A stretch of DNA of 64,000 bases from Parcubacteria group bacterium GW2011_GWA2_43_13 (GTDB lineage: Bacteria > Patescibacteriota > Patescibacteriia > UBA9629 > GWA2-43-13): positions 12,253-76,252 of the forward strand of contig LCFM01000003.1 of the NCBI GenBank assembly GCA_000999025.1, in the 5' to 3' direction. A program made the position numbers and the translations under genes. Below, one piece after another: positions 13,593 through 61,106 of this stretch. How positions within the stretch are numbered: position 1 is the first letter of the stretch; every line of letters starts with the position of its first letter. The notes below the pieces were generated by a model. That model saw nothing but the letters and a program-made list of their open reading frames with translations, searched no databases and was not told where the DNA came from.

Positions 13593-13982
13593 TCACATTA
13601 TTACACCACGACTCAACGCTTCTCTTAAAGCGTCACGAACCAAAAGTGCACACTTGAGGCGCACTGGGGTAAGGGAAATGCCTAATAAATCTGTTACTGT
13701 TTCCGACGTCATTTGCTCTACTTCTTGGATTTCCTTCTCTTTTGCCCATTCAGTCAATAGAGAAGCGCTGGCAATGCATATCGCGCATCCATGGCCATCA
13801 AACCCAATAGCGACAATATTTGACAATTGACAATTGACAATTGACATTTGGACCCACACTTCAACCTCATCCCCACACAACGGATTAGAAACCTTACCAG
13901 AATAATGCGTAAAATCATCCAACCTCCCTCGGTTTCGCGGGTTTTTGTAATGATCTAAAATCTGCTCACGGTACATTGACAT
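13593..13982 (-). CDS. sufU: Fe-S cluster scaffold SufU/IscU-like, carrying an in-frame repeat insertion
   Basis: HYKNPRNRG ... CGDEV ... GCAICIASAS conserved scaffold motifs. The loop between them is expanded by MSIVNCQLSNIV, which is encoded by the family C repeat. Confidence 0.75.
   Translation of the reverse strand: MSMYREQILDHYKNPRNRGRLDDFTHYSGKVSNPLCGDEVEVWVQMSIVNCQLSNIVAIGFDGHGCAICIASASLLTEWAKEKEIQEVEQMTSETVTDLLGISLTPVRLKCALLVRDALREALSRGVIM
13816..13852. repeat. Family C tandem repeat (TTGACAA x4) inside sufU
   Basis: atatttgacaattgacaattgacaattgacatttgga, in frame. Confidence 0.8.
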
Positions 13983-14034
13983 AAAATCATATTTATGGTA
14001 AGAGGTACCTTACCTCAACATAGAAAGGCGCAAC

Positions 14035-14442
14035 ATGTTGTCACGAAAGATCCGGCGCACGCCTCATAGCCCAGTGCCACAAATAACAGTGAGTTACAAT
14101 ATAGTACCACAGGCGAACCTCCGCTCTGCGGACCTCCGCGAGGCGGACCTCCGCTCTGCGAACCTCCGCGAGGCGGACCTCCGCTCTGCGAACCTCAGCT
14201 GGGCGTTCCTCAACTGGGCGGACCTCCGCTCTGCGGACCTCCGCAAGGCGAACCTCCGCTCTGCGGACCTCCGCGAGGCGGACCTCCGCAAGGCGAACCT
14301 CCGCGGGGCGTTCCTCAACTGGGCGGACCTCCGCTCTGCGGACCTCCGCGAGGCGTTCCTCAGCGGAGCGAAATACAATGCACAAACCATGTTCCCCGAA
14401 GGATTTGATCCGAAAACCGCAGGAATGATCAAACAGGAATGA
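14035..14442 (+). CDS. pentapeptide-repeat protein
   Basis: ANLRSADLREADLRSANL repeats (A[DN]LxxA[DN]L). The underlying DNA is a 30-nt-period tandem repeat, so the antisense frames are also open. Confidence 0.55.
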   Translation: MLSRKIRRTPHSPVPQITVSYNIVPQANLRSADLREADLRSANLREADLRSANLSWAFLNWADLRSADLRKANLRSADLREADLRKANLRGAFLNWADLRSADLREAFLSGAKYNAQTMFPEGFDPKTAGMIKQE

Positions 14443-14508
14443 TCAAATCCGAGAACTAACTCCCCCCTGCCGACGCGAAGCTGTATCTACAGTTCCGCGT
14501 TTTTTTTA

Positions 14509-15780
14509 TTACAACCGCTTCTGTACACTTTTTATACCAACCACCAACCTCTCAACATCCTCTTCGGTATTATATACCCATACGCTTGCCCGACACGATG
14601 CGACAAGTCCTAAGTATTCATGCAAAGGCATAGCGCAGTGATGACCAGCGCGGATGGCAATATTTTGTTCATCCAATAATTGGGCTACATCATGAGCGTG
14701 GATGTTAGGGAAGTTAAACGAAATCAAACCAGAGCGTTTTTCAATCTCGCGAGGACCAAGAATCCAGTTTTCAGTTTTCATCTGCCAGCTGGCGGATCGG
14801 TTTTCAAATTTGACATTTGATAACTGACAACTGATATTTGAAAGTATTGCCTCCTCGTGCTTCCGTATATCATTCCAGCCCAAACTCTTTAACCAATTCA
14901 CTGCCGCGGCAAGCCCAATCGCGCCTGCGATATGTGGAGTGCCTGCTTCAAATTTATGCGGAACATCATTCCAAACCGAATAATCGCGATGCACTTCGCG
15001 GATCATATCCCCACCAGTTATAAACGGCTCCATCTCTTGCAGGCGTGATGACTTTGCGTATAACACGCCAATGCCGGTTGGGCCACCTAATTTATGCCCG
15101 GAAAACACCAGAAAATCACAATCTAAATCTCCCACATCCACTTTCATGTGAGGAACTGATTGCGAAGCATCAATCAATACTGGCACATGATGTTCATGCG
15201 CTTGTTTGATGATTTCTTTTATTGGATTGACCGTGCCAAGCACATTGGAGACATGGGTAAGCGCGAGGAAATTGATTGACTCAAAATAATGGTCAGGAAT
15301 AATCAATTCTCCATTTGCATCAACTTCCAAGTACCGTAACGTACTACCTTTGACATTTGACAACTGACATTTGACAACCGACTGCCACGGCACAATATTG
15401 CTGTGATGCTCGGCAATGGATAACCCAATAACCGCACCGTCACCCCCTCCTTTTAAAGGAAAGGGGAGGGGGTGGTTTCGCAACCACGCGTACGCGACTA
15501 AATTGATCGCCTCGGTCGCGTTGCGCGTAAAAATAATCTCGGAAGGATGCGCGCCAATAAAGCTGGCAACATCCTCCCGCGCCTGCTCATACGCCGCGGT
15601 GGCGCGATTAGAAAGCGCATAAATCCCCCTATGAACATTCGCGCTGTATTCGGTGTAATACTTGTTCATCGCGTCAATCACGCACTGCGGTTTTAGTGCT
15701 GTCGCCGCGCTATCTAAATACACCAAATCTGGATGATGGTTAAATATCGGAAATTCTTTTTTAATACTTTGATCAAACAT
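14509..15780 (-). CDS. sufS: cysteine desulfurase SufS (PLP-dependent), with three in-frame repeat insertions
   Basis: RAGHHCA active-site motif and the PLP lysine region (SGHKLGGPTG). The start was set at MFDQSIK to avoid overlap with the upstream gene. Confidence 0.85.
   Translation of the reverse strand: MFDQSIKKEFPIFNHHPDLVYLDSAATALKPQCVIDAMNKYYTEYSANVHRGIYALSNRATAAYEQAREDVASFIGAHPSEIIFTRNATEAINLVAYAWLRNHPLPFPLKGGGDGAVIGLSIAEHHSNIVPWQSVVKCQLSNVKGSTLRYLEVDANGELIIPDHYFESINFLALTHVSNVLGTVNPIKEIIKQAHEHHVPVLIDASQSVPHMKVDVGDLDCDFLVFSGHKLGGPTGIGVLYAKSSRLQEMEPFITGGDMIREVHRDYSVWNDVPHKFEAGTPHIAGAIGLAAAVNWLKSLGWNDIRKHEEAILSNISCQLSNVKFENRSASWQMKTENWILGPREIEKRSGLISFNFPNIHAHDVAQLLDEQNIAIRAGHHCAMPLHEYLGLVASCRASVWVYNTEEDVERLVVGIKSVQKRL
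14771..14844. repeat. Family C/E repeat in sufS (GCCAGCTGGCGGAT plus TTGACA-type heptamers)
   Basis: ctgccagctggcggatcggttttcaaatttgacatttgataactgacaactgatatttg is translated as NISCQLSNVKFENRSASWQMKTENW. Confidence 0.75.
15348..15384. repeat. Family C tandem repeat in sufS
   Basis: ctttgacatttgacaactgacatttgacaaccgactg is translated as KCQLSNVKGST. Confidence 0.8.
15441..15474. repeat. Family B-like palindrome in sufS (CACCCCCTCCTTTTAAAGGAAAGGGGAGGGGGTG)
   Basis: Imperfect hairpin translated as PLPFPLKGGGDG. Confidence 0.65.
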
Positions 15781-16197: not shown

Positions 16198-16845
16198 CTA
16201 TGATTGAGGTATTAATTTCATCACTTCGAATAAAAATCCTTTGATGATCATTTCTTGCGCTAATGCCTTTTCTATACCACGACTTTGGAGATAAAACAAC
16301 TGCCTATCATCAATCCTACCAGTCGTTGCGGCATGGCTTGCTTTGACATCATTGGCTTCTATTTCCAACTCCGGCTTGCTTTCTGATTTTGCATGTTTTG
16401 ATAGCAACAACACCCGATTTTCTAAAAACGCGTTTGATTGCTGGGCTGGTTTATCAATTTTGATCATGCCGTTGAACACTTGTTTACTCGCATCTTTCCC
16501 CACGCCTTTGAATAATGTTTTTGATTGCGAGCGCGGACCAAGATGATGAACAGTAAGATTGAATTGATAATGACTATCGTGTTCAGCAAGAACTGCGCCA
16601 CAGATTTCTGCCCGTGCGTCTGCGTGGAGTTCAACGCGCAGAGTACGGCGCGTCATCGTACCCTCTCCTAATGTAGGAGAGGGTACGATGACACTCGTCG
16701 GTACAAAAAAATACCGCACAACTCCAAACGGCTCTACCGTAATCACCGCCTCTCCCGAAACTCCCCCATCATCAACCACCACCAACTCATCGTTGGGATT
16801 AACACAAATATTATTCATCATATCAGACCAATGCAATAACTTCAT
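16198..16845 (-). CDS. sufD: SufD-like Fe-S assembly protein (short)
   Basis: C-terminal SufB/D core ([27 protein letters not shown]). The ORF contains family B element 16651-16692, which also offers an internal SD+ATG (start MTRRTLRVEL at 16656). Confidence 0.65.
   Translation of the reverse strand: MKLLHWSDMMNNICVNPNDELVVVDDGGVSGEAVITVEPFGVVRYFFVPTSVIVPSPTLGEGTMTRRTLRVELHADARAEICGAVLAEHDSHYQFNLTVHHLGPRSQSKTLFKGVGKDASKQVFNGMIKIDKPAQQSNAFLENRVLLLSKHAKSESKPELEIEANDVKASHAATTGRIDDRQLFYLQSRGIEKALAQEMIIKGFLFEVMKLIPQS
16651..16692. repeat. Family B element (CGTCATCGTACCCTCTCCTA-ATG-TAGGAGAGGGTACGATGAC)
   Basis: 19-bp near-perfect inverted repeat. Both orientations read AGGAGAGGG-N4-ATG. Confidence 0.8.
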
Positions 16846-34184: not shown

Positions 34185-34200
34185 ATATTGCTGTATTCCA

Positions 34201-34267
34201 AATATCAAATGTCAGTTATCAGTTTTCAAATTTGACAACTGAAAATTGACAACTGAAAACTGCCAGT
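34201..34267. repeat. Family C tandem repeat between the hydrogenase subunit genes
   Basis: aatatcaaatgtcagttatcagttttcaaatttgacaactgaaaattgacaactgaaaactgccag. Confidence 0.8.
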
Positions 34268-35599
34268 ATGCACTTAATAGACCTCGACCTCACCATTGAC
34301 GAAATGACCAAAGTAGAAGGCGCGGCATCTGTTGATGTCAAAATTCGCAGTGGCGTGGTTGAATCAGTCAAGTTCGGCATCACAGAATACAAACGATTTT
34401 ATACCCAAGCCATGCGCGGAAAATCCATCACTGCCCTGCCCCAACTATTAGCCCGAATTTGTGGCACCTGCAGTAACGCGCATTTACTGTGCAGTATTGA
34501 AGCATGCGAACACGCGCTTGGCATCACCCCATCCCCTCAAACCCAAATTCTAAAACGACTTACCATGTATGGATTAAACATCCGAGATCACGCATTACAT
34601 TTGTATCTTTTTGTTGCTCCTGACTTGCGTAATAAAGACAATTTTTTAAGTTTTGACGAGCATGATCCTATAGAACACGATATGCTCCACGATGCATTTG
34701 CCATCAAAGCCGCTGGCAATCATCTCGCCCAAATCGTCGCAGGCAGAAGCGTGCATGGCATGTATCCTGCTATTGGAGGATTTACCAAAACCCCTACGCA
34801 ACAAGAAACGCAGTCAATTATTAAGCAACTTCAAGAGGTACGGCCACGCGTATTGCGACTCATTAAAACATTTGAACAATGCGATTGGAAATTTGATCGC
34901 ACAACCAAGTATATGGGTATGTCGGCTGATCATTATTCTTTTTTAGAAGGAGTTATCATCAGCGATACTGGCCAACGGATAGAAGAACAGGACTACCACA
35001 ATCATTTGGAACATGTCGTCATCCCCTATTCTCAAGCATCTGGATACAAACACGATAATGAATGTTATATGGTTGGTGCTCTCGCGCGTGTTAATTTATC
35101 AAAGGAAAAACTGCATCCGAATACAAAAAAAGACGCAAATTCTGCTATTGCGCTCTTTCCATCAACCAATATCTATCACAATAATCTTGCACAGGCGATT
35201 GAAATTTTGCATTGCATTGATGACGCGATTGACCTGCTTAATAATACCCAATTTAAACAAGAACCCCTCCCAAAACCGGTGTTTCGCGAAGCAATGGGCA
35301 TTGGAGTTGTAGAAGCGCCGCGCGGGATGCTGTATCATCGCGTGCATATTGATGATAACGGCATTGTGATGGAAGGCGATATTGTGGTACCGACCGGACA
35401 AAATCAAATCAATATTGAACAAGATTTAAAAACCCTTATTCAGCGATTGATTGATAATGATGTTGAAAATAAACATGAAATCCAGCACGAGATGGAAAAA
35501 CTCATCCGCGCCTACGACCCCTGCATGTCCTGCGCCAGTCATTTTTTAAAAATCAATTGGATAGAAAAAAATAACATCCTTACATTCTCAAGTTTATAA
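34268..35599 (+). CDS. [NiFe]-hydrogenase large subunit (group 3-like)
   Basis: N-terminal TKVEGAAS (RIEGH-like) and RICGTCSNAH (L1), with C-terminal DPCMSCASHF (L2, DPCxxCxxH). Confidence 0.8.
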   Translation: MHLIDLDLTIDEMTKVEGAASVDVKIRSGVVESVKFGITEYKRFYTQAMRGKSITALPQLLARICGTCSNAHLLCSIEACEHALGITPSPQTQILKRLTMYGLNIRDHALHLYLFVAPDLRNKDNFLSFDEHDPIEHDMLHDAFAIKAAGNHLAQIVAGRSVHGMYPAIGGFTKTPTQQETQSIIKQLQEVRPRVLRLIKTFEQCDWKFDRTTKYMGMSADHYSFLEGVIISDTGQRIEEQDYHNHLEHVVIPYSQASGYKHDNECYMVGALARVNLSKEKLHPNTKKDANSAIALFPSTNIYHNNLAQAIEILHCIDDAIDLLNNTQFKQEPLPKPVFREAMGIGVVEAPRGMLYHRVHIDDNGIVMEGDIVVPTGQNQINIEQDLKTLIQRLIDNDVENKHEIQHEMEKLIRAYDPCMSCASHFLKINWIEKNNILTFSSL

Positions 35600-38353: not shown

Positions 38354-39577
38354 ATGCAAAACTACGATTACATCATTATCGGTGGTGGAGTGGCAGGTAC
38401 GGTTGCCGCAGAAACCATTCGGCAGAATGATACAAACGGGACAATCGCCATTATCTCGGATGAACCATACCCGTTTTACTCCCGCATCATGCTATCAAAG
38501 CCAAACTTTTTTTTAGGCAAAATGTCGTTTGAGTCAATTTTCCGGCATGATAAGCAATGGTATATTCAAAACAATATAGATTTAAAAAATAGTATCAGGG
38601 CAACTACTCTCAATACTGATACAAAAAAGGTTACACTCAATACTAACGAATCCCTTACATACAACAAACTCCTCCTTGCCCTTGGCGTCTGCGCCCGAAC
38701 ATTAGGACTCCCAAACGAAACGATAAGCGGTGTCTATTGCGTTCGCACGCTTGATGATGCAAAAGGCATCATGAAAACCATAAAAACGGCAAAAAAAGCC
38801 GTTGTTGTTGGCGCTGGATTTATTGGGTTTGAAATGTGCGATATTCTCAAACTCGCTGGCCTTGATGTTACCCTCATTATCCGCGAGCCATTCTTTTGGG
38901 GACACCTCTTACATAACAAGGCCGGAAGTATTATAGAAAAAGCAATAACTGAAAAAGGAGTAACTATCATAAAAGAAGATGAAGTCGCAACTATTGAAGG
39001 CGCGGAAATAGTAACTGGTATCACAACAAAAAAGCAGGTCCATCTTAATGCAGATCTCCTTGCGATTGGTGTTGGATCCGTATGTCCTAAAGATATCCTT
39101 TTACAAAAAACAATGGAAACAAGAAATGGCATTATTGTGAACGAATATCTTGAAACCAATATGCCTGATATATGGGCCGCTGGTGATTGCGCTGAATATT
39201 TTGATACTATTTTGGATGAATATATCCAAATGGGAAACTGGGCAAATGCGCAATTGCAAGGAAAAATTGCCGGCCTCAATATGACTGGCACAAAAACTGC
39301 TTTTAGCGCCGTAACTAATTATACGTGTAGCGGATTTGGGCTTTCAATCGCTTTTGTAGGAGATGTAAAAAGCGGAGAAGGTAAAGAGTTAATAGAACGT
39401 ATGCCAGACGACACACATTCGTATGGCCACTTTATTCTTAAAGATAACCGCATTATTGGCGCGGCGCTCATTAACAGAACATCAGAACTGAATACCATTA
39501 CTACATTGATACAAAACAAAATTGATATTTCAAATAAAAAAGAACTCCTTGTATCAGGAGATATTGCAATATCGTAG
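38354..39577 (+). CDS. FAD-dependent pyridine nucleotide-disulfide oxidoreductase (NADH oxidase / rubredoxin reductase-like)
   Basis: Two Rossmann motifs (IIGGGVAGTVAAE and VVVGAGFIGFEM). The stop TAG is part of the family A hairpin. Confidence 0.75.
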   Translation: MQNYDYIIIGGGVAGTVAAETIRQNDTNGTIAIISDEPYPFYSRIMLSKPNFFLGKMSFESIFRHDKQWYIQNNIDLKNSIRATTLNTDTKKVTLNTNESLTYNKLLLALGVCARTLGLPNETISGVYCVRTLDDAKGIMKTIKTAKKAVVVGAGFIGFEMCDILKLAGLDVTLIIREPFFWGHLLHNKAGSIIEKAITEKGVTIIKEDEVATIEGAEIVTGITTKKQVHLNADLLAIGVGSVCPKDILLQKTMETRNGIIVNEYLETNMPDIWAAGDCAEYFDTILDEYIQMGNWANAQLQGKIAGLNMTGTKTAFSAVTNYTCSGFGLSIAFVGDVKSGEGKELIERMPDDTHSYGHFILKDNRIIGAALINRTSELNTITTLIQNKIDISNKKELLVSGDIAIS

Positions 39578-39662: not shown

Positions 39663-40943
39663 TTAACGAACTTTCAACACAACCAAGTGTTCAATATGCG
39701 GAGTATGCGGAAAAAAGTTATACCCGCGTGAACATACCACAGAATAAGTATCAGCAAGCAATGCGATATCTCTTGCTTGAGTAGAAAGGTTGCATGACAA
39801 ATACATCATAGTACGCGGACGCGCTTTTTTTAATTGTTCAATGATTCTATGATGTAACCCCGCGCGGGGAGGATCAACAATCACAGTTGAATCACTATCA
39901 ATCGCGGTTTCATAATCCTCTGCCCTGCCTTCAATAATCTGCGCATGATCATAGCCATTCATCTTGCTATTCTTTTTTGCAGACGCGCAGGCAAAAGTAT
40001 CATTCTCAATCAACACCAATTCTGACGCCTGACGCGCGATAGACAATCCGATTGATCCAACCCCACTATACACATCAACTACGCGACCACTCTCAACCCA
40101 TTGCGCAATATCTTTTAATGCCAAAACGTACACTGGCACATTTACCTGAAAAAAACTTAATGGAGAATACGAAAATACACATTCACCAATATCATCAATC
40201 AAATCATCACTCCCATACCGTGCCAGTACTTTTGTCGGCACAGACGCAGGGCTTTTGTGCGTTGAATAATATACTGTAAACGATTCAAGTGGTTTTTCTA
40301 TAACAAATTCAGGAAGCGAGATATCGTCTTTTTTAATAAACAATGCCGCGTGCACCATTCCTTTTTGTGTTGCTCGTACAATCAATGATTTAACATGCCA
40401 GCCACGAATTCCTGCTATTGCTAACTGATCCCGAATATCTTGCGCTACCTGATTGATTTCATTTTTTGCCAAACAACACCCTAAAATAGGAATTTTCCGT
40501 TTTCCGCCACGGCTAAAAAAAGCAAGCGAAAGATCGTTCTCTGTCTCTGACCAAAAACTAAACTCCATTTTATTGCGATACCCGTACTCAACCCCATCTG
40601 TCACAATGGCATCAGGAGAGAGATCAACATTTTCGCGTGCAAACGCCTCCTGTATAATTCTTTCTTTCCATTTATTTTCTTTGCTAAAATCCAAAATTTG
40701 CCACGGACTGCATGAAAGAAAATGATTTTCACGCGCATCGCGCCGCTGTGGAGATGAGGTAATAATGTGTTCAGTAACTGCCTCTCCGTAATCAGGCTTA
40801 TTTTTGGTAACACGCGCTTCAACAGTTTCTCCAGGCAGAGCATTCCACACAAAAAATTTCTTACCGTCAACTTCTCCCATTCCTTGCCCGCCAAACACTA
40901 ATCTATCAATCTTAATCTTAATAGTACTCATATAATATGCCAC
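39663..40943 (-). CDS. TRAM-domain RNA (uracil-5-)-methyltransferase (RlmD/TrmA family)
   Basis: N-terminal TRAM domain with a SAM-methyltransferase C-terminus (VVDPPRAGL, catalytic Cys region). Confidence 0.8.
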   Translation of the reverse strand: MAYYMSTIKIKIDRLVFGGQGMGEVDGKKFFVWNALPGETVEARVTKNKPDYGEAVTEHIITSSPQRRDARENHFLSCSPWQILDFSKENKWKERIIQEAFARENVDLSPDAIVTDGVEYGYRNKMEFSFWSETENDLSLAFFSRGGKRKIPILGCCLAKNEINQVAQDIRDQLAIAGIRGWHVKSLIVRATQKGMVHAALFIKKDDISLPEFVIEKPLESFTVYYSTHKSPASVPTKVLARYGSDDLIDDIGECVFSYSPLSFFQVNVPVYVLALKDIAQWVESGRVVDVYSGVGSIGLSIARQASELVLIENDTFACASAKKNSKMNGYDHAQIIEGRAEDYETAIDSDSTVIVDPPRAGLHHRIIEQLKKARPRTMMYLSCNLSTQARDIALLADTYSVVCSRGYNFFPHTPHIEHLVVLKVR

Positions 40944-41836
40944 TTTCCTTTATGGAAAACCATACATCCTTCCCGAGTGAGCGCGTCTAAAATATCCCCT
41001 AACTCATGGGCGTATTTCTCCAAATACGGATTACCTGCACATGATTTCAAAATCTCTTGTGATGATGCTTTTTTATGTTCCAAAAGATACCGCACAATAT
41101 GTGCGCGCACATACCGTTTTGATCCTTCAAATTTTGACTGCTTTATATAGTGTTTACTTTTTCTGTTAGGATTGAGAATTCCCTCCATTGCCAATGCCCC
41201 ATAATCCATCAGTGCTGAATACCACATCCGCGGGTCTTTTTTATACAGATATTTTTCTATCAAAGGCATTAATTCTGCGTCTGACACTATTCTGTCATCG
41301 CGAGGATTCTCCCGAAGGGGAAAGACGTGGCGATCTCGAGATTGCTTCGTCGCCTGCGGGCTCCTCGCAATGACAGAAGAAGTAAAAAAGAAATAAATAA
41401 ACACCCTCCTCACATTCGTCTCAATCAGCACCTCTGGATTATTAAACGCAAATACGCTCACTGCCCGAGCAGTATACGGCCCCACACCTGGTAGTTTCTC
41501 CAATTCTTGCGCAGTACGAGGAAACCTGGCGCCATACTCCTTTTGCACCACCTGACACGCGCGCTGTAAATACAACGCTCTACGATTATACCCTAACCCC
41601 TGCCACGCTTTCAAAACATCAGCAACTTTTGCCTGTGCCAAAGCCCGCGCGGTTGGGAAGTTCTTAAGAAACGCGCTATATTTTGGAATTACGCGATCCA
41701 CCTGCGTCTGTTGCAACATTAATTCAGACACCAAAATCCGATACGCTGACTGGTTCACCTTCCTTCGCCATGGCAACGTATGCCTCCCGTTTTTCTTATA
41801 CCAACTTAAAATCTCTTTTTGAAATTCAGCAGACAT
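40928..41836 (-). CDS. HhH-GPD DNA glycosylase (MutY/Nth-like, no Fe-S loop) carrying an in-frame MITE-like insertion
   Basis: QTQVDRVIPKY ... LPGVGPYTARAV helix-hairpin-helix GPD core. An inserted segment at 41291-41377 is translated. Confidence 0.7.
   Translation of the reverse strand: MSAEFQKEILSWYKKNGRHTLPWRRKVNQSAYRILVSELMLQQTQVDRVIPKYSAFLKNFPTARALAQAKVADVLKAWQGLGYNRRALYLQRACQVVQKEYGARFPRTAQELEKLPGVGPYTARAVSVFAFNNPEVLIETNVRRVFIYFFFTSSVIARSPQATKQSRDRHVFPLRENPRDDRIVSDAELMPLIEKYLYKKDPRMWYSALMDYGALAMEGILNPNRKSKHYIKQSKFEGSKRYVRAHIVRYLLEHKKASSQEILKSCAGNPYLEKYAHELGDILDALTREGCMVFHKGKWHII
41291..41377. mobile_element. Family D MITE-like element with 16-bp terminal inverted repeats (TCTGTCATCGCGAGGA ... 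TCCTCGCAATGACAGA)
   Basis: The TIRs match at 15 of 16 positions. Internal hairpin TCCCGAAGGGGA. In frame within the glycosylase gene. Confidence 0.65.
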
Positions 41837-41845
41837 AATCTATTT

Positions 41846-42493
41846 TTACCGAAGCGCTAAAATCACAGGATCATCTGTTAGGTGTACTTTTCGCGCTGGA
41901 GAATATTTCCTTCCGTATTCGATCATGAGATAGGTGAATTCAAACCACTGTTTTTTCGGAACAATCTGCATAAGATCTTGTTCGATTTTTTTAGGATCAT
42001 TGTTATCAGTCAAACCGAATTTTTGAGATAACCGGCGCACATGCGTGTCAACCGCAATTCCTTCAACAACACCATATGCGTTCCCCAACACCACATTTGC
42101 TGTTTTTCTGCCAACGCCAGGGATTGTCATCAATGTATCCATAGTGCGAGGGATAACACCGCTATATTTTTCTTTCACCATTTTCGCGGCTTGTAAAATA
42201 TGTTTTGCTTTATTTTTATAAAATCCTGTTTTAAAAATATCCCGCTCAAATTCCGCGCGATCTGCGTTCACATAATCATCTAATGTTGTATATTTTTGAA
42301 ATAATTTTTCTGTCACGTGGTTGACCATCACATCAGTGCACTGCGCAGAAAGAATGACAGCAACAAGCAATTCCCATGAATTGGAAAATTTCAAAACTAT
42401 TCCCGCTACAGGGAATAGTTTTTTTAATTCTCGAATAACCAATCGCACTCGTTTTTTTCTTTGTGCCAATACGGCTGAGGGCATATATGTCAT
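41846..42493 (-). CDS. nth: endonuclease III-like HhH-GPD glycosylase
   Basis: LVAVILSAQCTD and IPGVGRKTANVVL motifs. No C-terminal 4Cys cluster visible. Confidence 0.8.
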   Translation of the reverse strand: MTYMPSAVLAQRKKRVRLVIRELKKLFPVAGIVLKFSNSWELLVAVILSAQCTDVMVNHVTEKLFQKYTTLDDYVNADRAEFERDIFKTGFYKNKAKHILQAAKMVKEKYSGVIPRTMDTLMTIPGVGRKTANVVLGNAYGVVEGIAVDTHVRRLSQKFGLTDNNDPKKIEQDLMQIVPKKQWFEFTYLMIEYGRKYSPARKVHLTDDPVILALR

Positions 42494-54242: not shown

Positions 54243-54350
54243 CACCCCCTCCTTATACAGGATGGGGAAACTGATACATCACCTCTCCTTTACAAAGAGA
54301 GTGCCCATACGTCTCCCTCTCCGTTGCAAGGAGAGGGTAGGGTGAGGTTT
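54243..54350. repeat. cluster of three Family B hairpins (last copy reverse: CCTCACCCTACCCTCTCCTT-GCAAC-GGAGAGGGAGACGTAT)
   Basis: Intergenic between the HD gene and the MazG-like gene. Also encodes the last residues of the MazG-like ORF. Confidence 0.75.
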
Positions 54351-60999: not shown

Positions 61000-61010
61000 A
61001 GTATCGCGAT

Positions 61011-61073
61011 CCCCTCCCCTTGGTAAGGGGATGGCAGGGTGTCACCCTGCGGGTGATCCCCCGAAGGGGGAAG
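61011..61073. repeat. degenerate Family B-like hairpin cluster (CCCCTCCCC...AAGGGGATGG, CAGGGTGTCACCCTG, TCCCCCGAAGGGGGA)
   Basis: Three short GC-rich hairpins. Confidence 0.6.
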
Positions 61074-61106
61074 GTTTAATTTTACAAAATAAAAATTTTT
61101 ATCAAT

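What the first reader, a model, noticed from the sequence alone, without database searches (positions are those of the whole stretch)
41291..41377. MITE-like element with 16-bp terminal inverted repeats inserted in frame in an HhH-GPD DNA glycosylase gene
TCTGTCATCGCGAGGA at 41291-41306 and TCCTCGCAATGACAGA at 41362-41377 are inverted repeats matching at 15 of 16 positions. They flank about 55 bp containing an internal hairpin (TCCCGAAGGGGA). The unit lies inside the MutY/Nth-like gene 40928..41836 and is read through as ...VRRVFIYFFFTSSVIARSPQATKQSRDRHVFPLRENPRDDRIVSD..., directly after the conserved HhH-GPD region. This is a different element class from families A to C. A related TCCCCCGAAGGGGGA hairpin appears at 61058.
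Basis: seen in the sequence. Interest (0 to 1): 0.65.

Follow-up and report, generated by a model that had tools for sequence, protein, structure and literature searches.

The report
Palindromic repeat inside a repair gene
An 87-base palindromic DNA repeat, from a family found in many bacterial phyla and in viral contigs, sits in frame inside a DNA-repair gene of a tiny groundwater bacterium and is read through as a floppy 27-residue loop; the phenomenon is known (as in Rickettsia), but this lineage and this recurrent insertion spot are new.

Summary
Two 17-nt arms (41290-41306 and 41362-41378, 16/17 complementary) flank 55 nt with two small hairpins, in frame in gene 40928..41836(-). It is not a classical MITE. 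It is an inverted dimer of two REP units of the "CGTC/TGTC-tagged" kind (Di Nocera 2013), the superfamily that includes Rickettsia RPE-4/-6 and Neisseria dRS3. Each unit has a TGTC tag, a 5-bp stem starting with AT (ATTGC/GCAAT or ATCGC/GCGAT), a loop with a variable hairpin, and a 3-nt tail. There is no target-site duplication. It lies in frame in RecF, TsaD, MurB, ValS, GuaA, Tgt, a glycosyltransferase and probably UvrA. The host is a MutYX-type clusterless adenine glycosylase. A solved homologue (8UUC) is contiguous where this protein has 27 extra residues, which AlphaFold models as disordered. The host gene is under purifying selection (dN/dS 0.07-0.14). The same loop carries palindromic inserts in at least eight separate places on the homologue tree, so it is a hotspot. 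The element core is far more conserved than the surrounding synonymous sites. Verdict: a new member of a known kind; moderate interest.

The parts
41290..41378 (.). Whole element: an inverted dimer of two REP units with tags outward and tails abutting at CTCGAG (41335-41340). 89 nt including the 17-nt arms.
41293..41337 (+). REP unit 1 ('C-type'), read on the + strand. Tag TGTC 41293-41296; stem ATCGC 41297-41301 pairing with GCGAT 41330-41334; 28-nt loop 41302-41329; tail CTC 41335-41337.
   Evidence: Unit search; within-half covariation; tail statistics CCA 48%, CTC 31%
41338..41375 (-). REP unit 2 ('T-type'), read on the - strand, which is the gene's sense strand. Tag TGTC (complement of 41372-41375); stem ATTGC (41367-41371) pairing with GCAAT (41341-41345); 21-nt loop 41346-41366; tail CTC (41338-41340).
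41310..41321 (.). Apical hairpin of unit 1 (TCCC GAAG GGGA; a cUUCGg-type loop on the mRNA strand). This hairpin is replaced wholesale in orthologues: CCCACTTT GAA AAGTGG in L001, CTGC CCAT GCAG in L004.
41352..41361 (.). Apical hairpin of unit 2 (GCC TGCG GGC). It is replaced by GCCG CCATT CGGC in L004.
40928..41836 (-). Host gene: a MutYX-type clusterless adenine DNA glycosylase, 302 aa. It has an HhH-GPD domain plus a C-terminal X domain and no 4-Cys loop. Catalytic E38 and E139 and the 8-oxoG-recognition residues Q233 and R241 are conserved.
   Evidence: Pfam; PDB 8UUC at E 9e-56; PMC12631127; invariant columns; dN/dS 0.07-0.14
41300..41380 (-). Codons 153-179: the 27 residues that are extra relative to insert-free homologues (SSVIARSPQATKQSRDRHVFPLRENPR). 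They are modelled as a disordered loop between helices 140-151 and 186-195.
   Evidence: 8UUC aligns as query 20-152 to chain 19-149 and query 180-255 to chain 150-225. The canonical loop is 34 aa against 61 here. pLDDT is below 50 for residues 154-179.

Best explanation
The element is a non-autonomous palindromic repeat: two REP (repetitive extragenic palindrome) units of the CGTC/TGTC-tagged superfamily in inverted orientation. It landed in a permissive surface loop of a MutYX adenine glycosylase gene of a Candidatus Jacksonbacteria (Patescibacteria/CPR) genome. Its length (a net 81 nt) and stop-free frame keep the gene open, so it is transcribed and translated as a 27-residue hydrophilic, disordered loop, and the enzyme stays functional. 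Shown: the anatomy of the units; membership of a very large family spread across phyla and viral contigs; absence of a target-site duplication; in-frame copies in many other housekeeping genes; the exact position of the extra residues; purifying selection on the host gene. Inferred: spread is by a trans-acting enzyme that recognises the unit as a hairpin in single-stranded DNA, with seamless excision and insertion as in the IS200/IS605-RAYT world, although no dedicated enzyme is known for CGTC REPs. Also inferred: the loop is hit again and again because it is one of the few tolerant places in the protein, and perhaps because its T-tract/A-rich DNA is a favoured target. Finally, the near-identity of the element cores among diverged orthologues most likely reflects turnover (re-insertion, or conversion from other copies) rather than in-place conservation.
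For: Anatomy: both halves have a TGTC tag, a 5-bp AT-first stem, a loop with a hairpin, and a CTC tail. It is found in Alpha-, Gamma- and Deltaproteobacteria, Bacteroidota, Chloroflexota, Patescibacteria, Planctomycetota, Cyanobacteria, Aminicenantes and Opitutaceae. This element's own central stem gives 44 metagenome loci. Among 318 copies, 81% have a complementary Y/R pair just outside GTCAT/ATGAC, i.e. a CGTC or TGTC tag. The tail is CCA in 48% and CTC in 31%. Covariation is within a half and not across halves, and further stem types ATTCC/GGAAT and ATCTC/GAGAT occur in the sister alleles. There is no TSD. The family fits the published description of CGTC REPs: tag CGTC or TGTC, stem starting with AT, 3-nt tail CCA, mostly dimers, no dedicated transposase, intragenic dimers encoding 20-30 aa, many in repair genes (PMC3733652). 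In-frame copies lie in RecF, a glycosyltransferase, TsaD, MurB, ValS, GuaA and Tgt, with Pfam matches spanning the insert; in UvrA the insert lies between separate domain matches. The insert is delimited by 8UUC and is disordered in AlphaFold. Host dN/dS is 0.07-0.14. Hotspot: all five proteins of the Jacksonbacteria clade, P0006, P0008, P0010, P0011, P0024, and a Treponema-like group carry inserts at the same loop; all ten CPR inserts fold as hairpins; insert-free sequences are their sisters on the tree.
Against: Only one copy of this family is present in the 64-kb window, so multi-copy status in this genome is not shown. The units depart from the published CGTC families: the stem is 5 bp rather than 8-9, and the loop is 12-28 nt with a nested hairpin rather than 4-5 nt. 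The peptides typical of this family (VIAS....LAMT) are absent from that paper's intragenic list. Each unit alone folds weakly (-4.2 and -5.6 kcal/mol, no better than shuffles), so thermodynamics favour the long hairpin while covariation favours the unit stems. No mobilising enzyme was identified. Translation of the insert is inferred from the open frame and from selection on the gene, not observed.
Confidence: 0.8

Rival explanations
1. It is a classical MITE: a deletion derivative of a DDE-transposase insertion sequence, mobilised through its 16-bp terminal inverted repeats.
For: It has terminal inverted repeats, is small, is repeated elsewhere, and lacks coding capacity.
Against: There is no target-site duplication beyond chance in 290 copies. 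No transposase lies between paired copies. The arms covary with inner segments of the same half and not with each other. The tag, AT-stem and CCA-tail architecture is that of CGTC REPs (PMC3733652).
Confidence: 0.05
2. It is an exapted structured nucleic acid. On this view the hairpin, as mRNA or DNA, is kept by selection for a function at this locus. Candidate functions are mRNA stabilisation, an RNase or translation-pausing signal, or a protein-binding site that tunes expression of the repair enzyme.
For: The 54-nt conserved core is 54/54 identical between window and L001, although synonymous sites differ at pS 0.51. It is 52/54 identical to L004, where synonymous sites are saturated. The side hairpins change sequence yet remain hairpins, and one outer-stem pair changes T-A to C-G. 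There is a cUUCGg-type loop on the sense strand. All four independent low-GC intragenic copies of this subfamily have the same orientation relative to the gene. The REP literature proposes RNA-level roles (PMC3733652).
Against: The same family is mostly intergenic, and its length modulo 3 is evenly spread. No Rfam family matches. Close relatives carry an unrelated palindrome at the same site (L002, L006) or nothing. Hairpin-preserving changes can arise from template switching in palindromes without selection. An orientation count of 4 out of 4 is not significant.
Confidence: 0.12
3. It is a locally generated palindrome, arising from template switching or inverted duplication within the loop, or an ancestral loop sequence that happens to be self-complementary.
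For: One allele (P0024, L175) looks like an inverted duplication that even replaces the FFF codons.
Against: The element shares 12-nt ends and a 20-nt central stem with hundreds of copies in unrelated genomes and genes.
Confidence: 0.01
4. It is an intervening sequence that is removed (a mini-intron, a translational bypass or an intein-like segment), so the mature protein lacks it.
For: It forms a very stable hairpin inside a coding region.
Against: There is no match to any intron or ribozyme family. There is no stop codon or frame shift that would require removal. All inserted alleles examined are open and in frame. At 27 aa it is far too short for an intein.
Confidence: 0.02

Closest known systems
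CGTC-tagged REPs (families CGTC-1 to -4; Di Nocera, De Gregorio & Rocco 2013, BMC Genomics 14:522, PMC3733652)
   Same: A 5' tag of CGTC or TGTC; a stem whose first two pairs are A-T; a 3-nt unpaired tail (consensus CCA; CTC here). The units are mostly inverted dimers with tags outward. No dedicated transposase is known. The repeats occur in several phyla. Intragenic dimers encode 20-30 residues, often in DNA repair and replication genes.
   Different: The stem is only 5 bp (ATTGC/ATCGC) rather than 8-9. The loop is 12-28 nt and carries a hypervariable nested hairpin, rather than 4-5 nt. The encoded peptides (VIARS..KQSRDR..PRDD; elsewhere SLRG....LAMT) are not in that paper's list. Patescibacteria, Chloroflexota, Planctomycetota and viral contigs were not among the CGTC hosts reported there.
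Rickettsia palindromic elements (RPE; Ogata et al. 2000 Science, 2002; from my own knowledge and as cited in PMC3733652, which equates RPE-6 and RPE-4 with CGTC-1 and CGTC-4)
   Same: Palindromic repeats inserted in frame in housekeeping genes of a reduced-genome bacterium and translated as extra surface peptides without destroying function.
   Different: The host lineage differs (CPR, not Rickettsiales), as does the stem sequence. RPE-1 is longer (about 100-150 bp). Sequence relatedness to RPE consensus sequences was not tested here.
REPINs / RAYT-mobilised GTAG REPs (Bertels & Rainey 2011; Nunvar 2010, PMC2817692; Ton-Hoang 2012)
   Same: The replicating unit is a doublet of inverted REPs that can fold as one long hairpin. 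There is no target-site duplication. A single-strand hairpin is presumably recognised.
   Different: The tag is (C/T)GTC, not GTAG. No flanking RAYT gene was seen. REPINs are typically extragenic and species-specific, whereas this family keeps its sequence across phyla.
Bacterial MITEs such as Correia/NEMIS elements
   Same: Short, non-coding, with terminal inverted repeats, and occasionally co-transcribed or read into ORFs.
   Different: MITEs have target-site duplications and ends derived from a known IS. Neither is found here.
Neisseria dRS3 repeats (= CGTC-1 in PMC3733652)
   Same: The same tag and AT-stem logic: ATTCCC..GGGAAT there, ATTGC..GCAAT here. Sister alleles of this very loop (P0006, P0008, P0010, P0011) carry ATTCC/GGAAT units.
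   Different: dRS3 repeats are 20-bp units in large intergenic arrays and are known as integration targets. They are not in-frame dimers.

Membership tests
CGTC/TGTC-tagged REP superfamily | An unpaired 5' tag of CGTC (or TGTC/CCTC) at one end of each unit | tested here: met
   TGTC is at 41293-41296 (+) and, as its complement, at 41372-41375. In 318 family copies, 81% have a complementary pair just outside GTCAT/ATGAC: C/G in 175 and T/A in 78.
CGTC/TGTC-tagged REP superfamily | A stem whose first and second positions are complementary A-T pairs | tested here: met
   ATCGC/GCGAT and ATTGC/GCAAT here. Family-wide counts: ATTGC 304, ATCGC 64, ATTCC 41.
CGTC/TGTC-tagged REP superfamily | A stem of 8-9 bp and a loop of 4-5 nt | tested here: not met
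   The stem is 5 bp and the loops are 21 and 28 nt here. The family median is 16 nt, with modes at 12 and 18, and the loop carries a nested hairpin. The paper notes that Bradyrhizobium CGTC-1 has loops of different length, but its figure could not be read.
CGTC/TGTC-tagged REP superfamily | A 3-nt unpaired tail, consensus CCA | tested here: met
   The family tail is CCA in 278/574 units and CTC in 176/574. This element has CTC on both units.
CGTC/TGTC-tagged REP superfamily | Units pair as inverted dimers; the unit, not the dimer, is the conserved hairpin | tested here: met
   The variable arm base covaries with the same-half partner (p 2.9e-4 and 3.7e-6). It does not covary across the outer stem (p 1.0) or the central stem (p 0.24).
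CGTC/TGTC-tagged REP superfamily | Many copies per genome | tested here: inconclusive
   There is one copy of this family, plus one other YGTCAT...ATGACR palindrome (16652-16692), in the 64-kb window. The rest of the genome was not available. Other contigs hold 2-3 copies within 6-12 kb (L147, L218, L233, L253).
MITE (IS-derived) | A target-site duplication flanking the element | tested here: not met
   Direct repeats of 2-7 nt at the flanks occur at chance frequency in 290 copies, e.g. 4 observed against 4.5 expected for k=3. None is present at this copy.
MITE (IS-derived) | Ends shared with an autonomous IS that encodes a transposase | tested here: inconclusive
   Among 24 pairs of copies 0.3-3.5 kb apart, the ORFs that were printed and read by eye (8 intervals) looked like ordinary genes, e.g. 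a phage-portal-like 398-aa ORF and membrane or glycosyltransferase-like ORFs. No Pfam scan was run on them, and no transposase was recognised. This is not an exhaustive search.
REPIN / RAYT system | A GTAG tag and an associated RAYT (Y1 HUH) gene flanked by the REPs | tested here: not met
   The tag is YGTC. No RAYT was seen next to any copy. PMC3733652 states that CGTC REPs lack a dedicated transposase. The window was not fully scanned for Y1 transposases.
Rickettsia palindromic elements (functional analogy) | An in-frame insertion, translated, at the protein surface, with host function kept | tested here: met
   The frame is open. A 27-aa loop has pLDDT below 50 between two confident helices. 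The insert is absent from the solved homologue 8UUC. dN/dS is 0.07-0.14 and catalytic residues are invariant. Translation itself was not observed.
MutYX (clusterless adenine glycosylase) - host gene | No 4-Cys [4Fe-4S] loop; a catalytic Glu replacing the Asp; Gln/Arg recognition of 8-oxoG; a short C-terminal X domain | tested here: met
   The best PDB match is 8UUC at E 9e-56, including the NPxRxSxHxxxQSxFEGSxR region. There is no invariant Cys among 24 homologues, while E38, E139, Q233 and R241 are invariant. The description of MutYX is in PMC12631127.

The most novel reading that the evidence does not exclude
The MutYX loop is not just a tolerant place but a true integration hotspot. On this reading, several unrelated hairpin elements (ATTGC-type and ATTCC-type REP dimers, and the AATAACCCTCCCC/GGGGGAGTTATT family) are repeatedly and cleanly exchanged there by a shared single-strand mechanism. 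That mechanism would target the T-tract/A-rich quasi-hairpin of the FFF-loop codons. The family's conserved shell (tag plus 5-bp stem) with freely swapped apical hairpins would then be a modular, actively turning-over system that keeps one sequence across at least ten phyla and their viruses. This would imply a still-unidentified, widely shared mobilising or maintaining factor for CGTC REPs, possibly linked to DNA repair genes.
Probability: 0.15. Interest if true: 0.6.

Novelty: new member of a known kind. Interest (0 to 1): 0.35.

Why it matters
The finding extends in-frame REP/RPE-type "selfish DNA in genes" to the Patescibacteria (CPR). The literature I could search contains no description of it there. 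It also shows that one CGTC-type family keeps its sequence across about ten phyla and many viral contigs.

For annotation, this explains odd 20-30-residue low-complexity insertions (VIARS..KQS.., SLRG.., ..LAMT, ..PRND/PRDD) in CPR housekeeping proteins, and many spurious small ORFs.

For biology, there are three points:
- It adds a base-excision enzyme (MutYX) to the list of repair genes that carry REPs.
- It provides a natural series of alleles at one loop: empty, REP of type A, REP of type B, and another palindrome. Such a series could be used to study how these elements are gained, lost and replaced.
- CGTC REPs still have no known transposase, so a hotspot with clear turnover is a useful handle on that open question.

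Tried and rejected
- **Rfam.** I ran the whole window at gathering threshold, the local region at E<=10, and 18 loci holding typical copies. Only tRNAs and sub-threshold matches to microRNA-precursor and BsrC models came back, which I treat as noise. It is not a described RNA family.
- **tRNA or tmRNA.** The cloverleaf-like fold made me check; ARAGORN finds nothing there.
- **Full-text search for sequence strings and typical peptides.** Only primer coincidences were returned.
- **Literature on palindromic repeats or RPEs in CPR/Patescibacteria.** Nothing relevant was found. The 2025 RepRanger paper does not mention Patescibacteria or intragenic REPs in its main text.
- **Target-site duplication and flanking palindromes.** There is no TSD. 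Complementarity stops after the tag base, apart from a weak signal at the next position. The idea that elements sit inside pre-existing palindromes is therefore not general, though a few copies do (L092, L122, L128 group).
- **Transposase between paired copies.** None was recognised. Three viral contigs have a portal-like gene between two copies.
- **Other copies in the window.** The 11-mer with up to 2 mismatches gives 23 hits against 20 expected, i.e. none beyond the two arms.
- **Precise common junction among alleles.** The left and right boundaries differ by a few codons. This is the same loop, not the same nucleotide, which weakens a strict site-specific model.
- **Insert-free variants within the 90% protein clusters.** None; all full-length members carry the insert.
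- **Thermodynamic support for separate unit hairpins.** Weak; the support for unit hairpins comes from covariation only.
- **The GGGGGAGTTATTG family of L002/L006 in the window.** No convincing copies were found.
Full report
**1. The observation**

The repeat finder extends them to 17-nt arms, 41290-41306 and 41362-41378, with 16/17 complementary and 55 nt between them. In the 64-kb window the 16-mer with up to 3 mismatches matches only these two arms, against 0.26 expected. The segment folds as a long stem closing three small hairpins. The RNA energies are -53.1 and -49.6 kcal/mol on the two strands, with z-scores of -7.0 and -6.1. With DNA parameters the energy is -23.4 kcal/mol, z -4.2. G+C rises to 0.60 against about 0.40 around it.

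The element lies in ORF 40928..41836 on the minus strand, which has Pfam HhH-GPD and HHH matches, and it is read through without a stop. The identical 302-aa protein is on record from 18 contigs and several accessions of Candidatus Jacksonbacteria / Parcubacteria MAGs. The insert is therefore not an assembly artefact.

**2. It is an insertion, and the host is a MutYX glycosylase**

The closest solved structure is 8UUC (E 9e-56). It aligns in two pieces: query 20-152 to chain 19-149, and query 180-255 to chain 150-225. The solved protein is therefore contiguous exactly where this protein has 27 extra residues, 153-179.

8UUC is Eggerthella MutYX, described as follows (PMC12631127):
- It is a clusterless adenine glycosylase.
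- A catalytic Glu replaces the usual Asp.
- It recognises 8-oxoG through a Gln and an Arg.
- It has a short C-terminal "X" domain.

In an alignment of 24 homologues no Cys is invariant, while E38, E139, Q233 and R241 are.

Among the 120 closest homologues, the distance between the ETNxRRxFx motif and LMDYG is 34 residues in the great majority and 61 here. AlphaFold2, run with that alignment, gives mean pLDDT 84.8. It drops below 50 for residues 154-179, between confident helices 140-151 and 186-195. Outside the insert, dN/dS between this gene and its relatives is 0.07-0.14. The gene is under purifying selection.

**3. What the element is**

The hosts are:
- Alphaproteobacteria (Bradyrhizobium, sphingomonads, Rickettsiales, Micavibrio)
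- Gamma- and Deltaproteobacteria
- Bacteroidota (Pedobacter, Mucilaginibacter, Flavobacterium)
- Chloroflexota
- Patescibacteria
- Planctomycetota
- Cyanobacteria
- Aminicenantes
- Opitutaceae

The pattern hit the same limit in IMG/VR viral contigs. The 20-nt central stem of this particular copy gave 44 metagenome loci, most of them complete elements.

The copies share one architecture:
- (C/T)GTC
- ATTGC
- GAG, a small variable hairpin, then CGAA
- GCAAT
- CCA or CTC
- then the mirror image of all of this.

In 318 non-redundant copies, the base outside GTCAT pairs with the base outside ATGAC in 81%. It is C/G in 175 and T/A in 78. Further out, complementarity is at chance level. The three bases after GCAAT are CCA in 48% and CTC in 31%.

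The search pattern left one base free in each arm, which allows a covariation test. That base covaries with its partner in the same half. In left halves, C goes with G in 3 of 4 cases against 3 of 115 (p 2.9e-4). In right halves the figures are 5 of 7 against 2 of 102 (p 3.7e-6). It does not covary with the opposite arm: there are 0 compensated cases, 11 T.G and 5 C.A (p 1.0). Nor does it covary across the central stem (p 0.24).

The conserved hairpin is therefore the half, and the "terminal inverted repeats" are a by-product of two units lying head-out. Here the two units are of different types: ATTGC/GCAAT on the sense strand and ATCGC/GCGAT on the other. Each unit alone folds weakly, so this inference rests on covariation, not on energy.

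Flanking direct repeats occur at chance frequency, so there is no target-site duplication. Element length modulo 3 is evenly spread, so in-frame copies are a selected subset.

**4. Comparison with what is known**

No Rfam family matches, either here or in typical copies elsewhere. The description fits the "CGTC-tagged REPs" of Di Nocera et al. 2013 (PMC3733652). That paper reports the following features:
- The tag is CGTC, often TGTC.
- The stems start with two A-T pairs.
- There is a 3-nt tail, consensus CCA.
- The units are mostly inverted dimers.
- There is no dedicated transposase.
- Hosts span several phyla.
- Intragenic dimers encode 20-30 residues, many in replication and repair genes.

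The paper also reports different REPs at about the same site of recB in two Xanthomonas species. It equates CGTC-1 and CGTC-4 with Rickettsia RPE-6 and RPE-4, and with Neisseria dRS3.

The present family departs from the four published families. The stem is 5 bp rather than 8-9. The loop is 12-28 nt with a nested hairpin rather than 4-5 nt. The peptides it encodes are absent from that paper's table of intragenic REPs. Patescibacteria are not among the hosts listed there. A search of the held literature found no description of such insertions in CPR bacteria.

**5. In-frame copies elsewhere**

In low-GC contigs, most of them CPR-like, the same family lies in frame in the genes below. For these seven, Pfam domain matches run across the insert:
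- RecF
- a group-1 glycosyltransferase
- TsaD
- MurB
- ValS
- GuaA
- Tgt

In UvrA the insert lies between separate domain matches, and in a transglycosylase it lies N-terminal of the match. The MutYX case is thus one instance of a common behaviour of this family.

In the window itself, a second YGTCAT...ATGACR palindrome (16652-16692) lies in the SufD-like ORF. It is read as VIVPSPTLGEGTMT, although the true start codon may lie downstream of it.

**6. The loop is a hotspot with turnover**

All ten CPR homologues with an enlarged loop carry a hairpin-forming element there:

| Allele (protein, locus) | Element at the loop |
|---|---|
| P0001 (window), P0003 (L001), P0004 (L004) | This family |
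| P0008, P0011, P0010 | Dimers of ATTCC/GGAAT-type units, one of them in another reading frame |
| P0006 | An ATTCC/ATCCC dimer with CCA tails |
| P0002 (L002), P0005 (L006) | A different family with arms AATAAC(C)CTCCCC / GGGGGAGTTATT |
| P0024 (L175) | An 80-nt palindrome |

A Treponema-like group also has a 19-21-residue insert there.

On a tree built with the loop masked, the insert-bearing sequences are interspersed with empty ones. The two families also alternate inside both Jacksonbacteria subclades. L001 and L002 are syntenic with the window at about 85% nucleotide identity, yet they differ at this site. The junctions differ by a few codons, so it is the same loop and not the same nucleotide.

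The conserved 54 nt of the element are 54/54 identical between window and L001. They are 52/54 identical to L004. Meanwhile the flanking coding DNA is 77-84% and 65-68% identical, and synonymous sites differ at pS 0.51 or are saturated. The apical hairpins, by contrast, are replaced wholesale.

I read this as repeated re-insertion or conversion from other copies at a tolerant, AT-rich loop. Selection on the nucleic-acid structure cannot be excluded and is kept as a rival.

**7. Mechanism, with its status**

Shown:
- the unit anatomy
- family membership
- the absence of a TSD
- the exact site
- the disordered extra loop
- a selected, intact host gene
- recurrent occupation of the loop

Inferred:
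- The insert is translated.
- It is neutral or nearly so.
- Spread is through a trans-acting enzyme that recognises the unit as a single-stranded hairpin, with seamless excision and insertion. No candidate enzyme was found near paired copies, in line with the published statement that CGTC REPs lack one.
- The hotspot arises from tolerance plus possible target bias.

**8. Verdict**

The feature is real and correctly located. The MITE label should be replaced by [quoted passage not shown]. It is a new member (a new family and a new host phylum) of a known kind. The recurrent, cleanly exchanged occupation of one MutYX loop and the cross-phylum and viral spread give it some extra interest, but neither is outside what REP biology already allows.

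Noticed in passing
window 16652-16692: A second YGTCAT...ATGACR palindrome, CGTCATCGTACCCTCTCC-TAATGT-AGGAGAGGGTACGATGAC. It lies inside the SufD-like ORF 16198..16845(-) and is read as VIVPSPTLGEGTMT. Its inner hairpin is the CCCTCTCC/GGAGAGGG type that is common between genes in this window. It may be an in-frame insert, or it may lie upstream of the true start (the ATG of ATGAC is Met64).
   Followed up: partly
window 351, 5405, 5440, 12690, 12723, 39573, 44415, 52778, 53646: GTAG-tagged palindromes of the form GTAGAGACG-N-CGTCTCTAC. They look like GTAG-type REPs, the other superfamily of Di Nocera 2013. At least the copy at 39573 lies just past the end of an ORF (38354..39577).
   Followed up: no
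window 3047, 4129, 15438, 43107, 43163, 54246-54344, 57818, 61007-61075: G+C-rich hairpins of the CCCTCTCC..GGAGAGGG and CCCCTCCCC..GGGGAGGG types, often in clusters. The hairpin TCCCCCGAAGGGGGA at 61058 resembles the apical hairpin of the element (TCCCGAAGGGGA). This suggests that apical hairpins are drawn from a local repertoire.
   Followed up: partly
L002 3150-3260 and L006 1000-1120 (orthologous MutYX loop): Another palindromic family occupies the same loop in two different Jacksonbacteria subclades. It has arms AATAAC(C)CTCCCC / GGGGGAGTTATT and one or two variable inner hairpins. No clear copy is present in the window.
   Followed up: partly
L175 (P0024 allele of the same loop): An 80-nt near-perfect palindrome replaces even the conserved FFF codons, which now read WKMGKM. 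It looks like an inverted duplication or template-switch event rather than an insertion of a repeat family.
   Followed up: no
window 41846..42493 (-): The adjacent endonuclease III-like HhH-GPD gene has a single Cys and no C-terminal 4-Cys motif. Both glycosylases of this locus therefore appear to lack the iron-sulfur cluster.
   Followed up: no
L221 1107-2560, L237 460-1917, L252 3430-4899 (viral contigs): Two copies of the REP dimer flank a conserved 398-aa ORF that looks like a phage portal protein, at a constant spacing of about 1.3 kb. The family is common in IMG/VR contigs, a possible route for its spread across phyla.
   Followed up: partly
L147 4324-5529 (-): A CPR-like glycosyltransferase carries two different in-frame palindromic inserts: RPHPNPLPKGEGDHG and VIANEVKQSRDRHVIFRQEKSARDD. 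RecF on the same contig carries a third.
   Followed up: partly
L128, L133, L140, L141, L154, L155, L156, L161 (one metagenome series): Here the REP dimer is embedded in a larger repeated palindrome of about 30 nt per arm (GTAACTATTCAGATTCACTGACACAGAATT ... ATTGTGTCCATAACTCTGAATAGTTAC). The copies differ by wholesale exchange of the two apical hairpins.
   Followed up: no
window 14082-14396; 13806-15381, 18291, 30748, 34198-34269, 56484: A tandem array with a 15-nt period (about 21 units), and dispersed TTGACA/CTGACA-rich repeats of 7-nt periodicity. Both are unrelated to the element studied.
   Followed up: no
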